Shown here in pieces: positions 1 to 15,416 of a stretch of DNA of 64,000 bases. How positions within the stretch are numbered: the stretch's first letter is position 1; each line of letters opens with the position of its first letter. Source of the DNA: Allocoleopsis franciscana PCC 7113. GTDB taxonomy: Bacteria; Cyanobacteriota; Cyanobacteriia; Cyanobacteriales; Coleofasciculaceae. The position numbers and the translations under genes were made by a program. A model generated the notes under the pieces. The model saw only the letters and a list, made by a program, of their open reading frames with translations. It was not told where the DNA came from and did no database searches. The stretch lies in NCBI RefSeq assembly GCF_000317515.1, contig NC_019738.1:2001623-2065622 (forward strand). The letters run 5' to 3'.

Positions 1-1208
1 TTCATTTCAAATAGGGCAAAAGTGCCTCCGATACAAACACGAGCACCGCCGCCAAAGGGAAAAAATTCGTAGGGAGAGAATTGTTTTTCTAGAAAGCGCT
101 CTGGCTTGAATTGTTTTGGCTCTGGGTATAAATCTTCACGCTGATGTGTGGAATAAATATTACCAGTGAGCGCTACACCCGGACTCAACTCATAACCCAT
201 CACCTCAACTGGGGACTCTACCAACCTGGGAAATGTAAATAACTGAGTCGGGTAAATTCGCAAAGCTTCGTTACAAACAGCATTAAGGTAGGGTAATGCA
301 ACAATGCTCATGGGCTCTGGATTTTTACCAAGGCTATCGAGTTCCTCAATCAGTCGATCGCGAACGACAGGTAAACGGTGAATCCAGTACAAAGACCAGG
401 CGATCGCAGTTGCTGAAGCATCTTGAGCTGCGAATATGGGTGATAATAGAAGGTCGCGCACCTCTTCATCGCTTAATGGTTCACCTGATTCATCATGAGC
501 AAATATGAGATCGGAGAGAATGTCAGTGTGTGAAGGTTTTGCTTGCTTGCGGCGTTCTTGGACTTCAGCGTATAGCAATTGGAAAAGTTCTTGCCGGAGG
601 TGAAGCAGGTATCCCTGTGGACTCCACCGACCTAAATCCCGTTGTCCAAAGGGGAGTCTTGTGGCAATCTCAAACAAGGGAGAATTCGCATGTTTGAGCA
701 CAGAAACGAATAGATGCTTGATTTTGTCATAGCGCTCTCCTTCAGGCAATCCCATCACAACCTCTATACCCACTCGCAGGGTGATATCTTCGATGGTAGG
801 GTAGGCAATAAAAGGTTTCCCGATCGCCTGTTGACTCATGATTTTTTCTGTGAGTTCGCAGATCCGTCGTCCGCAGGCTTGCATCCGCTCTCCGTGAAAA
901 GCCTGCATTAACAGCTTGCGCCGATGTTTGTGACGGAAGCCATCGAGTTGAAGGACTCCTCGCTCTCCTGTAATCAAGGCGAAACTCTGGTTCAATGCAC
1001 CGGATGCAGTGATTTCTTTGACGTTAGTGAAAATCTGCTTTATCCCTGAAGGATTGCTGACGAACAGTGTTGGTGTAGAATCAGGCATGATTATGGTGAA
1101 GATCTCACCATAGCGTTTGCACATGGCATCCAGCCAGCCAAAGGGGTCAGCTTGGAGTTTCGGATACAGTTGTCTAGCGGGAGCTTTCGGTCCTGGGGGT
1201 AGTTTCAT
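1..1208 (-). CDS. Cytochrome P450 monooxygenase, partial (C-terminus runs off the window start)
   Basis: Reverse-strand translation from the ATG at 1208-1206 gives MKLPPGPKAPARQLYPKLQADPFGWLDAM... and the heme-binding signature FPFGGGARVCIGG near position 40. The ATGA start overlaps the upstream NRPS stop. No stop codon before position 1. Confidence 0.8.
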   Translation of the reverse strand, partial: MKLPPGPKAPARQLYPKLQADPFGWLDAMCKRYGEIFTIIMPDSTPTLFVSNPSGIKQIFTNVKEITASGALNQSFALITGERGVLQLDGFRHKHRRKLLMQAFHGERMQACGRRICELTEKIMSQQAIGKPFIAYPTIEDITLRVGIEVVMGLPEGERYDKIKHLFVSVLKHANSPLFEIATRLPFGQRDLGRWSPQGYLLHLRQELFQLLYAEVQERRKQAKPSHTDILSDLIFAHDESGEPLSDEEVRDLLLSPIFAAQDASATAIAWSLYWIHRLPVVRDRLIEELDSLGKNPEPMSIVALPYLNAVCNEALRIYPTQLFTFPRLVESPVEVMGYELSPGVALTGNIYSTHQREDLYPEPKQFKPERFLEKQFSPYEFFPFGGGARVCIGGTFALFEM

Positions 1209-14900: not shown

Positions 14901-15416
14901 TTGACCTTGGCAAAATCCCTCATAGTAGGCAATGACTTCTTTAACGATTATGGGTAAAGACCAACCATCCAGCAGTAGATGGTGATGGCTCCAAACAAAA
15001 TGATAGTGAGTCTCGGCAAGTTTGATTAGAATTAGGCGCATTAGCGGCGCTTTGGACAGTTCAAAACCGCGCTTTCGGTTTGCGTCCAGTAAATTTTCCA
15101 GTCGTTCCTTTTGTTCAATGGGAGGGACGCTTTGCCAGTCTTGTTCTTCCCAATCGAGTTTTACGTGCCGACCTACTATCTGAAGGGGCTTTTCCAGTTT
15201 TTCCCACACAAAGGCGGTTCGTAAAACGGAATGCCGATTGACTACTTGCTGCCAGGCTTGGGCAAAGGCAGAAACGTTCAATTCTCCCTGCAATTCGCAA
15301 CTTAGTTGAGTGACATATACGTCGGATGCTGGGTCATAAAGGCTATGGAAAAGCATCCCCTGCTGCATCGGAGAGAGAGGATAGACATCTTCAATGTTTT
15401 TATTTTTTAAACTCAT
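11982..15416 (-). CDS. NRPS module C-A-PCP with an insertion in the A domain and an S/Q-rich C-terminal tail
   Basis: C: [28 protein letters not shown], core [65 protein letters not shown]. ATGA start/stop overlap with the upstream NRPS at 15413-15416. Confidence 0.9.
   Translation of the reverse strand: [1144 protein letters not shown]

What the first reader, a model, noticed from the sequence alone, without database searches (positions are those of the whole stretch)
1208..15416. Two near-identical A domains with Asp shifted from position 235 to 236 (FVDSVWE) flank an in-operon PLP decarboxylase: possible beta-/omega-amino acid incorporation
The A domains of NRPS 1208..5320 and 11982..15416 share the cores [17 protein letters not shown]..PLLQG, where canonical alpha-amino-acid A domains read FDxS with Asp235 binding the alpha-amine. 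A Val-Asp arrangement (V235/D236) is what beta-amino-acid A domains show (for example beta-Ala codes begin VD). Between the two genes sits a group II PLP decarboxylase (DGHK lysine motif), an enzyme class that turns Asp/Glu/diamino acids into beta-Ala/GABA/diamines. The co-localisation suggests the decarboxylase makes the unusual substrate these modules load.
Basis: inference. Interest (0 to 1): 0.7.

Follow-up and report, generated by a model that had tools for sequence, protein, structure and literature searches.

The report
Beta-alanine modules with their own decarboxylase
The tail of a cyanobacterial iron-chelator assembly line has two modules built to load beta-alanine and, between them, an enzyme that makes beta-alanine from aspartate; the principle is known, but this gene set recurs in over a hundred cyanobacterial genomes with no known product.

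Summary
Both adenylation (A) domains read F-V-D-S-V-W-E, and gap-free alignment to GrsA and LgrA puts Val at 235 and Asp at 236. Their codes are VDWVVSLADK (11982-15416) and VDWVISLANK (1208-5320).

They are not near-identical: 57.6% amino-acid identity, and they belong to different subclades. A PKS gene also lies between them.

The decarboxylase passes NCBI's equivalog model for PanP, the PLP-dependent aspartate 1-decarboxylase. It is 44-52% identical to the Vibrio/Geobacter-type enzymes.

In 80 genomes, close PanP relatives sit in NRPS/PKS clusters (39/40), and half show a VD-type A domain within 10 kb. Distant ones never do (0/40).

Published beta-alanine/beta-aminoisobutyrate A-domain codes share Asp236 and the ...SLADK tail.

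Every VD-type domain also replaces the A5 core YGPTE with YGSSE.

The region is the end of an orphan salicylate-primed, thiazoline-forming NRPS/PKS metallophore cluster of Allocoleopsis franciscana.

It is a new member of a known kind, with fungal (DtxS4, PleC) and actinobacterial (Krb30) precedents.

Two points stay open: what the Asn331 termination module loads, and whether active-site changes in the NRPS-linked PanP clade alter its substrate.

The parts
11982..15416 (-). NRPS gene, one module C-A-T (1144 aa). The A domain has code VDWVVSLADK and is predicted to load beta-alanine. The C domain starts with a D-donor-type motif ([12 protein letters not shown]), which fits the upstream E domain.
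   Evidence: the C-type reading is inference from motif knowledge
12405..13997 (-). A domain of the internal module (residues 474-1004). It includes a 34-aa insertion at 12789-12890.
13410..13430 (-). A4 core FVDSVWE (V235/D236); codons TTT GTG GAC TCC
13122..13136 (-). A5 core YGSSE in place of the canonical YGPTE
10178..11848 (-). PLP-dependent aspartate 1-decarboxylase of the PanP family (556 aa), predicted to turn L-Asp into beta-alanine + CO2. The Schiff-base Lys is in DGHK at 10796-10807; HVDAAWGG is at 10877-10900.
5432..10102 (-). PKS module KS-AT-KR-ACP (1556 aa). The KS Cys is present (TTCSTS). The AT has GHSIG and HAFHS, which I read as malonyl-specific. It would extend the beta-alanyl chain by a C2 unit reduced to 3-hydroxy.
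   Evidence: AT specificity from motif knowledge
1208..5320 (-). Termination module C-A-T-TE (1370 aa). The A domain has code VDWVISLANK. It belongs to a termination-module family 75-96% identical in more than 100 cyanobacterial assemblies.
2369..3817 (-). A domain of the termination module (residues 502-984), with FVDSVWE at 3230-3250 and YGSSE at 2942-2956
15413..23383 (-). Upstream NRPS, Cy-A(Cys, DLYNMSLIWK)-T-C-A(Ser, DVWHISLIDK)-T-E. Its stop overlaps the start of the beta-Ala module gene (ATGA).
23438..26917 (-). FkbH, acyl-CoA dehydrogenase, ACP (25768-26022) and 3-hydroxyacyl-CoA dehydrogenase. This is a glycerate-derived extender-unit cassette with no O-methyltransferase, so probably hydroxymalonyl-ACP.
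27006..37180 (-). The start of the assembly line: a KSIII-like::ACP fusion (35621-37180), TubC-dock-Cy-A(Cys, DLYNLSLIWK)-T (31893-35411) and PKS KS-AT-KR-ACP (27006-31688)
38667..46013 (+). Divergent genes that mark the cluster as a metallophore cluster: benzoate-CoA-ligase family enzyme, salicylate synthase, TonB-dependent siderophore receptor, periplasmic binding protein

Best explanation
Region 1208-15416 is the last third of a salicylate-primed, thiazoline-forming hybrid NRPS/PKS metallophore assembly line of Allocoleopsis franciscana. PanP (10178-11848) decarboxylates free L-aspartate at C1 to give beta-alanine. This gives the cluster a dedicated supply separate from pantothenate metabolism. 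The in-line A domain of 11982-15416 adenylates free beta-alanine. Moving the amine-binding Asp from position 235 to 236, together with remodelling the A5 loop (YGPTE to YGSSE), would re-position the acceptor for an amine one carbon further from the carboxylate. Its C domain joins beta-alanine to the upstream D-Ser-terminated chain. The PKS module adds malonate and reduces it, giving a 5-amino-3-hydroxypentanoyl unit. The termination module loads a second beta-alanine (or a close analogue) and the TE releases the product. Shown here: gene order, domain content, motif positions, family membership by HMM, and cross-genome co-occurrence. Inferred: both substrates, the direction of supply, the structural role of D236 and YGSSE, and the product.
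For: A domains: V235/D236 from gap-free alignments. The codes match the published xD..[VIF]SLADK signature of beta-Ala/BAIBA A domains. Trp239 fills space where the methyl-branched BAIBA domains have A/G/T. The VD-type domains are one clade, sister to Ser domains (DVWHISLxDK), so FDVS to FVDS is a swap of two adjacent residues. YGSSE is found in 34/34 VD-type domains in the related loci and in all 120 termination-module homologues. Among database hits, 19/20 domains with Asp235 keep GPTE and none of the 78 xD-type domains with a readable A5 motif does. PanP: TIGR03799 equivalog at 618.1 against a 606.1 cut-off. NCBI names the identical protein PanP. It is 44-52% identical to Vibrio/Geobacter/Pseudoalteromonas homologues. 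V. fischeri PanP is an aspartate decarboxylase (PMC10102598). PLP motifs are present, and 152 of 191 columns invariant in the housekeeping clade are kept. Linkage: of 40 genome loci with PanP at 53% identity or more, 39 have NRPS A domains within 10 kb and 20 have a VD-type one. Of 40 loci with more distant PanP, none has any A domain (Fisher p = 8e-8 and 8e-22, not corrected for phylogeny). In Scytonema PCC 7110, where no VD domain lay within 10 kb, the VD termination module is about 15 kb downstream in the same cluster. By matching contig lengths, PanP and termination-module homologues appear to share a contig in about 30 assemblies. Precedents for in-cluster Asp decarboxylases feeding beta-Ala modules: DtxS4 and PleC and Krb30 in the kribbellichelin siderophore cluster, which has two beta-Ala units.
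Against: There is no biochemical evidence for any protein of this clade. The TIGR03799 margin is thin (12 bits). The NRPS-linked PanP clade differs systematically from the housekeeping clade beside the conserved His of SExxHYS (which I take to be the PLP-stacking His) and in a loop I take to be catalytic: SERGHYS to SELMHYS (an Arg is lost), IDAHK to IDGHK, IEHHAxYILRxGSKDLGSH to IEKNASYTMRKxSFDLGKR. The termination module has Asn331 where every internal VD domain and every published beta-amino-acid code has Asp331, and about 110 of its 120 closest homologues conserve Asn331. That may mean a different substrate. Half of the NRPS-linked PanP loci showed no VD domain within the 10 kb I could fetch. 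My recollection that VDWVISLADK is the standard beta-Ala signature of prediction tools could not be checked against text (one search found nothing).
Confidence: 0.75

Rival explanations
1. The decarboxylase has drifted to another substrate (3-substituted Asp, Glu, 2,4-diaminobutyrate, cysteine sulfinate), and at least the termination module loads a beta- or omega-amino acid other than beta-alanine.
For: There are clade-specific changes in active-site-proximal motifs, including loss of an Arg two residues before the conserved His of SExxHYS, which I take to be the PLP-stacking His. The termination-module family conserves Asn331 instead of Asp331 and shows variants (YY, FY, YC, TC). The closest solved structures are diaminobutyrate-decarboxylase-like enzymes.
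Against: The diaminobutyrate, tyrosine, histidine and glutamate decarboxylase models are missed by hundreds of bits, while PanP is passed. A diamine has no carboxylate for an A domain to activate. The window holds no Asp-modifying enzyme. Trp239 argues for an unbranched small substrate when compared with the BAIBA codes. The window's cluster has no gene for another beta-amino-acid supply, yet it has both VD types.
Confidence: 0.12
2. PanP does not feed the A domains directly. It boosts beta-alanine for pantothenate, CoA and the phosphopantetheine arms of a megasynthase with about ten carrier domains, or it is simply the organism's housekeeping enzyme that happens to lie here.
For: The PanP family was defined as a replacement for PanD in pantothenate synthesis (name of TIGR03799; PMC10102598). 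Twenty of 40 NRPS-linked loci showed no VD domain within 10 kb. I could not check whether the genome also has panD.
Against: The gene sits inside the operon between the two VD-type modules, with intergenic gaps of 75 and 133 bp. All 40 distant homologues lie away from any NRPS, while 39 of 40 close ones lie inside NRPS/PKS clusters. The one 'missing' case I could extend had a VD module 15 kb away.
Confidence: 0.07
3. Carrier-tethered route, as in vicenistatin, fluvirucin, closthioamide and AFC-BC11. The A domains activate the side-chain carboxyl of L-Asp, and the decarboxylase removes the alpha-carboxyl on the T domain.
For: This route is documented for beta-alanine units (PMC11350588; PMC12186527; PMC11284099).
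Against: Those systems use stand-alone VinN-type A enzymes and stand-alone ACPs, whereas here the A domains are in-line in C-A-T modules. VinN and AfcQ need an Arg (Arg331/Arg311) to hold the alpha-carboxylate, whereas here position 331 is Asp or Asn and no code position is basic. VinN is not among the 60 best solved relatives of the A domain. The decarboxylase is about 50% identical to enzymes that act on free Asp.
Confidence: 0.04
4. The Asp shift has no bearing on the amine position, and the domains load an ordinary small alpha-amino acid such as Ser or Gly.
For: The VD clade is sister to Ser domains and shares W239, S301, L322 and D331 with them.
Against: Asp235 is replaced by Val in every member. 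The A5 loop is changed in every member. Published domains with Asp236 load beta-amino acids. The domains are linked to PanP across genomes.
Confidence: 0.02

Closest known systems
NRPS A domains that load beta-alanine or beta-aminoisobutyrate (KasE of kasichelin, SurC-A1 of surugamide F, CdeI of cadaside, the cryptophycin 3-amino-2-methylpropionate module)
   Same: A hydrophobic or small residue at 235, Asp at 236, and the S301-L322-A330-D331-K517 tail. They are in-line C-A-T modules that take the free beta-amino acid.
   Different: Here positions 239 and 278 are Trp and Val instead of A/G/T and T/V. The termination module has Asn331. No product or assay exists. Whether those reference domains also have YGSSE was not checked.
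PanP, PLP-dependent aspartate 1-decarboxylase of Vibrio fischeri and relatives (TIGR03799)
   Same: It passes the equivalog HMM, shows 44-52% identity, has the same length class and PLP motifs, and keeps 80% of the columns invariant in that clade.
   Different: It is a separate clade (53% identity or more among its members), found inside NRPS/PKS clusters of cyanobacteria, Pyrinomonadaceae, a Longimicrobium and an actinobacterial MAG rather than in unlinked housekeeping positions. It has systematic changes near the conserved His of SExxHYS and in a loop I take to be catalytic.
In-cluster aspartate decarboxylases that feed beta-alanine to NRPSs: DtxS4 (destruxin), PleC (pleosporacin), Krb30 (kribbellichelin siderophore)
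   Same: The same logic of a dedicated Asp-to-beta-Ala step inside an NRPS cluster. Kribbellichelin is also a siderophore with two beta-Ala units.
   Different: Two are fungal and one actinobacterial, all in NRPS-only lines. I did not compare sequences. Whether Krb30 is a PanD or a PLP type is not stated in the text I read.
Salicylate-capped thiazoline metallophores of cyanobacteria (lusichelins, leptochelins, fatuamide) and yersiniabactin-type lines
   Same: Salicylate synthase, Cy-A(Cys)-T modules alternating with PKS modules, and TonB-receptor and binding-protein genes.
   Different: The papers on lusichelin and fatuamide that I searched mention no beta-alanine, decarboxylase or FkbH. Here salicylate seems to enter through a CoA-ligase-family enzyme and a KSIII::ACP fusion.
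VinN/VinO, FlvN/FlvO, CtaD/CtaF, AfcQ/AfcP systems (beta-alanine made on a carrier protein)
   Same: The end result is a beta-alanyl thioester derived from aspartate by a PLP enzyme.
   Different: The architecture and the A-domain pocket differ. See the membership test and the rival explanation.

Membership tests
Beta-amino-acid (beta-Ala/BAIBA) NRPS A domains | Amine-binding Asp at position 236 with a non-acidic residue at 235 (GrsA numbering) | tested here: met
   V235/D236 in both domains, from gap-free alignments. The published codes have G/L at 235 and D at 236.
Beta-amino-acid (beta-Ala/BAIBA) NRPS A domains | Pocket tail S301-L322-A330-D331-K517 | tested here: met
   The internal domain VDWVVSLADK meets it in full. 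The termination domain VDWVISLANK meets 4 of 5, with Asn331.
Beta-amino-acid (beta-Ala/BAIBA) NRPS A domains | Selective adenylation of beta-alanine | not testable with these tools
   This needs ATP-PPi exchange or hydroxamate assays.
PanP (TIGR03799, PLP-dependent aspartate 1-decarboxylase) | Score above the curated equivalog cut-off over the full length | tested here: met
   618.1 bits against 606.1, covering residues 25-539 of 556 and profile positions 7-522 of 522
PanP (TIGR03799, PLP-dependent aspartate 1-decarboxylase) | Group II fold with the PLP lysine and the pyridine-N aspartate | tested here: met
   PF00282 at 1.7e-45; DGHK at 348-351; HVDAAWGG at 317-324
PanP (TIGR03799, PLP-dependent aspartate 1-decarboxylase) | Retention of residues invariant in the characterised (Vibrio-type) clade | tested here: inconclusive
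   152 of 191 are kept, but there are clade-wide changes at SERGHYS, IDAHK and the IEHHA...DLGSH loop.
PanP (TIGR03799, PLP-dependent aspartate 1-decarboxylase) | Decarboxylation of free L-aspartate to beta-alanine | not testable with these tools
   This needs an enzyme assay or panD complementation.
L-2,4-diaminobutyrate decarboxylase (RhbB type) | Score above the equivalog cut-off | tested here: not met
   157.9 bits against 900
VinN-type carrier-tethered Asp route | Stand-alone A enzyme and stand-alone ACP | tested here: not met
   Both A domains are embedded in C-A-T(-TE) proteins.
VinN-type carrier-tethered Asp route | A basic pocket residue (Arg331 in VinN, Arg311 in AfcQ) that holds the alpha-carboxylate | tested here: not met
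   Position 331 is Asp or Asn, and no basic residue occurs among the code positions except K517.
Salicylate-capped NRPS/PKS siderophore clusters | Salicylate synthase, Cy-A(Cys)-T modules, and a TonB-dependent siderophore receptor in the locus | tested here: met
   TIGR03494 at 327.8 against 325.15; TIGR01783 at 459 against 223.5; Cy motifs FPLTD.Q and DxxxxD; Cys codes

The most novel reading that the evidence does not exclude
The NRPS-linked PanP clade and the strongly conserved Asn331 termination module (VDWxISLANK-T-TE, 75-96% identical in over 100 cyanobacterial assemblies) form a portable chain-ending cassette. Its amino-acid unit would not be plain beta-alanine: the rewired PanP active site would make a different small beta- or omega-amino acid, and the Asn331 pocket would select it. 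That would define an undescribed building block and a large undescribed family of cyanobacterial metallophores or polyol-peptides.
Probability: 0.12. Interest if true: 0.6.

Novelty: new member of a known kind. Interest (0 to 1): 0.35.

Why it matters
The result gives a substrate prediction, beta-alanine twice, for an orphan metallophore cluster of a sequenced cyanobacterium, which makes the product easier to find by mass spectrometry and isotope feeding. It offers two sequence marks for beta-alanine-type modules: Asp236 together with YGSSE in the A5 core. It shows that PanP, known as a pantothenate enzyme, has a sister clade recruited into NRPS/PKS clusters in several phyla. It also points to a conserved PanP-plus-termination-module pair present in more than 100 cyanobacterial genomes, for which I found no described compound. 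None of this changes the accepted view of how A domains or decarboxylases work.

Tried and rejected
- **Text search for the codes.** Searching full text for VDWVISLADK, VDWVVSLADK and VDWVISLANK found nothing. The PARAS and Kribbella supplements held no usable codes. Reference codes came only from the kasichelin supplement.
- **Exact-sequence look-up.** It failed because I trimmed the wrong end of the minus-strand ORFs. The source was identified by homology search instead.
- **Homology search with the A-domain core.** It returned only short, unnamed proteins, so no characterised beta-Ala domain (JamL, Blm, Fxb) was recovered for direct comparison.
- **Solved structures.** No PanP structure exists; the nearest are diaminobutyrate-decarboxylase-like enzymes at E = 1e-53, so substrate-binding residues could not be mapped.
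- **Structure prediction.** I considered predicting the A domain and rejected it. The tools return no coordinates or residue-level superposition, so it could not settle 235 versus 236 better than the gap-free sequence alignments.
- **Known product.** The lusichelin and fatuamide papers, the only ones of these I read, do not mention beta-alanine, a decarboxylase or FkbH. The cyanochelin paper is not held. The siderophore review does not mention this strain.
- **Recent duplication of the two VD domains.** Rejected: 68% DNA identity and separate subclades.
- **Low-GC island.** PADLOC and repeat searches found nothing.
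Full report
**Source and layout.** The window comes from Allocoleopsis franciscana. The decarboxylase and the termination NRPS each match a protein of that species at 100% identity, on a 7.47-Mb contig. From my own knowledge, this is the strain formerly called Microcoleus sp. PCC 7113.

All genes from 37180 down to 1208 lie on the minus strand with short gaps. In order of transcription they are:

| Coordinates | Product |
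|---|---|
| 35621-37180 | KSIII-like::ACP fusion |
| 31893-35411 | TubC-dock-Cy-A-T |
| 27006-31688 | KS-AT-KR-ACP |
| 23438-26917 | 3-hydroxyacyl-CoA dehydrogenase, ACP, acyl-CoA dehydrogenase, FkbH |
| 15413-23383 | Cy-A-T-C-A-T-E |
| 11982-15416 | C-A-T |
| 10178-11848 | PLP decarboxylase |
| 5432-10102 | KS-AT-KR-ACP |
| 1208-5320 | C-A-T-TE |

These assignments rest. Four genes run divergently:
- a benzoate-CoA-ligase-family enzyme (TIGR02262, 495.7 bits against a 375.25 cut-off);
- a salicylate synthase (TIGR03494, 327.8 against 325.15);
- a TonB-dependent siderophore receptor (TIGR01783, 459.1 against 223.5);
- a periplasmic binding protein.

The finding therefore covers the last three modules of a salicylate-capped, thiazoline-forming metallophore line.

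**Checking the observation.** Both A domains contain [17 protein letters not shown] and PLLQG. Alignment to it gives these codes:

| Gene | A domain | Code | Reading |
|---|---|---|---|
| 11982-15416 | only | VDWVVSLADK | VD type |
| 1208-5320 | only | VDWVISLANK | VD type |
| 31893-35411 | only | DLYNLSLIWK | Cys-type (from memory) |
| 15413-23383 | first | DLYNMSLIWK | Cys-type (from memory) |
| 15413-23383 | second | DVWHISLIDK | Ser-type (from memory) |

HMMER aligns the A3-to-A4 stretch to both LgrA A domains without a gap. That puts F234 and S237 in register and the Asp one place later. So this is a swap within a motif of fixed length, not an insertion.

The word 'near-identical' does not hold. 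The A domains share 57.6% identity, the best DNA match is 68% over 695 nt, and the proteins share 44%.

**What the VD domains are.** I built a neighbour-joining tree of 96 A domains from the window and 82 related loci. All V/I/L-D domains form one clade, and its sister is the Ser clade DVWHISLxDK. The in-cluster Ser domain reads FDVSVWE (TTC GAT GTG TCA). The two VD domains read FVDSVWE (TTT GTG GAC TCC and TTT GTA GAC TCA). The family hallmark is therefore a transposition of two neighbouring residues relative to Ser-type domains.

- All 34 VD-type domains in the loci and all 120 termination-module homologues read YGSSE.
- The domains with Asp235 read YGPTE, YGPSE or YGITE.
- Among database hits to the internal domain, 67 of the 78 xD-type domains with a readable A5 motif have GSSE and none has GPTE.
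- 19 of 20 Dx-type hits have GPTE.

From my knowledge of the PheA structure, the substrate amine is held by Asp235 and by main-chain carbonyls of the A5 loop. A joint change at both sites would fit a displaced amine. This is inference.

The only reference codes I could find in text are in the kasichelin supplement (PMC12305651 Fig. S44):

| Domain | Code |
|---|---|
| KasE | LDGTISLADK |
| SurC-A1 | LDTTVSLADK |
| CdeI | LDTTVSLGDK |
| cryptophycin | GDAVFSLADK |

All are for beta-alanine or beta-aminoisobutyrate. The internal domain shares D236 and the V/I-S-L-A-D-K tail with them. Its Trp239, where the methyl-branched cases have A/G/T, suggests the unbranched substrate.

**What the decarboxylase is.** It is a PF00282 protein. 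It passes the NCBIfam equivalog model TIGR03799, 'pyridoxal-dependent aspartate 1-decarboxylase PanP', at 618.1 bits against a cut-off of 606.1. It scores far below the cut-offs for the following models:
- diaminobutyrate decarboxylase (158 against 900);
- archaeal tyrosine decarboxylase (127 against 299);
- bacterial tyrosine decarboxylase (89 against 905);
- histidine decarboxylase (79 against 305);
- glutamate decarboxylase (37 against 380).

V. fischeri PanP is cited as an aspartate decarboxylase that replaces PanD (PMC10102598). No PanP structure is solved.

**Comparative genomics.** A scan of one genome per species returned 80 loci.
- The 40 loci whose PanP is 53-78% identical come from cyanobacteria, Pyrinomonadaceae, a Longimicrobium and an actinobacterial MAG. 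Thirty-nine of them have NRPS A domains within 10 kb, and 20 have a VD-type one, usually in the gene directly upstream of panP.
- The 40 loci at 44-52% identity come from Geobacter and relatives, Vibrio, Pseudoalteromonas, Marinobacterium and others. None of them has any A domain.
- Tolypothrix shows the same tail as the window: A(VDWVVSLADK)-T, PanP, a methyltransferase, KS-AT-ACP, C-A(VDWLISLYYK)-T-TE.
- The closest relatives (Lyngbya CCAP 1446/10, a Microcoleus, Argonema) have three VD modules around PanP.

Loci without a VD domain are cut off by the 10-kb flank. In Scytonema hofmannii PCC 7110, PanP is followed by three PKS modules and a methyltransferase, and the VD termination module lies about 15 kb downstream. 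Nostoc locus L006 likewise continues with PKS modules to the end of the fetched DNA.

The termination module itself is unusually conserved. Its 120 best database matches are 75-100% identical over the full 1360-1380 residues, in Nostoc, Scytonema, Fischerella, Tolypothrix, Calothrix, Rivularia, Mastigocoleus, Gloeocapsopsis and others. About 110 of them carry VDW[I/V/L]ISLANK. By matching contig lengths, PanP and termination-module homologues appear to lie on the same contig in about 30 assemblies. This is an indirect match, not a direct look-up.

**Mechanism.** The best-supported reading has four steps.
1. PanP makes beta-alanine from free aspartate.
2. The internal module loads it after D-Ser. 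The upstream protein ends in an E domain (HHLVVDG plus EGHGR).
3. The PKS module adds a reduced C2 unit. It has a KS Cys and an AT with GHSIG and HAFHS.
4. The termination module adds a second beta-alanine-type unit, and the TE releases the chain.

**Rivals.**
- *Carrier-tethered route* (PMC11350588; PMC12186527; PMC11284099). It does not fit. The A domains are in-line, they lack the Arg that holds the alpha-carboxylate in VinN and AfcQ, and the decarboxylase resembles free-substrate enzymes.
- *Pure cofactor-supply role for PanP.* It is hard to square with the clean split between NRPS-linked and unlinked clades.
- *Changed substrate.* It cannot be excluded. The NRPS-linked clade has lost an Arg two residues before the conserved His of SExxHYS, which I take to be the PLP-stacking His (SERGHYS to SELMHYS). 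It also differs through a loop I take to be catalytic. The termination family has Asn331 where all internal and published beta-amino-acid domains have Asp331.

**Comparison with what is known.**
- Dedicated aspartate decarboxylases inside NRPS clusters are established in fungi: DtxS4 for destruxin and PleC for pleosporacin.
- One is proposed for the actinobacterial siderophore kribbellichelin, which also holds two beta-alanines.
- Beta-alanine spacers occur in other phenolate-oxazoline siderophores such as the kasichelins.
- Salicyl-thiazoline metallophores of cyanobacteria are described (lusichelins, leptochelins, fatuamide), but the lusichelin and fatuamide papers I searched mention no beta-alanine, decarboxylase or FkbH.
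- I found no paper on this cluster, on an NRPS-linked PanP clade, or on the conserved termination module. The library lacks most subscription journals, so this absence is weak evidence.

**Verdict.** The case is a new member of a known kind. Standard annotation already names the decarboxylase PanP, and I expect standard NRPS predictors would call the internal domain beta-alanine. What is left for follow-up is the Asn331 termination module, the rewired PanP clade, and the large orphan family they mark.

Noticed in passing
window 2942-2956 and 13122-13136 (-); also loci L002-L041: Every VD-type A domain replaces the A5 core YGPTE with YGSSE: 34/34 in the related loci and 120/120 termination-module homologues. 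Domains with Asp235 keep the Pro. This is a second sequence mark of the family.
   Followed up: yes
window 1208-5320 (-): The C-A-T-TE termination module is 75-96% identical over its full length in more than 100 cyanobacterial assemblies of many genera. In the three Scytonema, Fischerella and Gloeocapsopsis loci I fetched, it is followed by P450, SDR, Suc_Fer-like and MATE genes, plus MbtH in two of them. This is a large family for which I found no described product.
   Followed up: partly
window 35621-37180 (-), 38667-41576 (+): Salicylate seems to enter by an unusual route: a salicylate synthase, a benzoate-CoA-ligase-family enzyme and a KSIII-like::ACP fusion. The usual salicyl-AMP ligase with an aryl carrier protein is absent.
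   Followed up: partly
window 23438-26917 (-) and 27006-31688 (-): The FkbH, acyl-CoA dehydrogenase, ACP and 3-hydroxyacyl-CoA dehydrogenase cassette has no O-methyltransferase, so the extender is probably hydroxymalonyl-ACP. The AT of the adjacent PKS has GYSIG instead of GHSxG.
   Followed up: partly
window 12789-12890 (-): The internal beta-Ala A domain has a 34-residue insertion (DLELPIV...KSSV) just before the LYKTGD motif, and a second insertion of about 20 residues before A10. Both are absent from the termination-module A domain.
   Followed up: no
L002/L003, L006, L011, L017, L018, L022, L038, L041, L042, L058: Many Nostocales PanP clusters also hold an A domain with code DIWEM(S/V)ADDK. 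In the loci where I looked at neighbouring genes (L002/L003 and L006) a class-III aminotransferase lies next to it. This looks like a second in-cluster precursor-supply pair, possibly for 2,4-diaminobutyrate (from memory of the Dab code).
   Followed up: no
window 51000-57500: A tRNA-Leu (57418-57499, -) lies next to a tyrosine integrase (56111-57286, -) and a stretch of about 30% GC that holds a 921-aa ORF (51773-54538, -) with no Pfam or PADLOC match. This looks like a tRNA-integrated island. No flanking direct repeat was found.
   Followed up: partly
window 46450-49570: A MerR::CbiC (precorrin-8X methylmutase) fusion protein (46450-47562, -) is divergent from a P-type ATPase (47645-49570, +). 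An orange carotenoid protein gene follows (49953-50915, +).
   Followed up: no
window 15413-15416: The stop codon of the 2656-aa NRPS overlaps the start codon of the beta-Ala module gene (ATGA), which suggests translational coupling.
   Followed up: no
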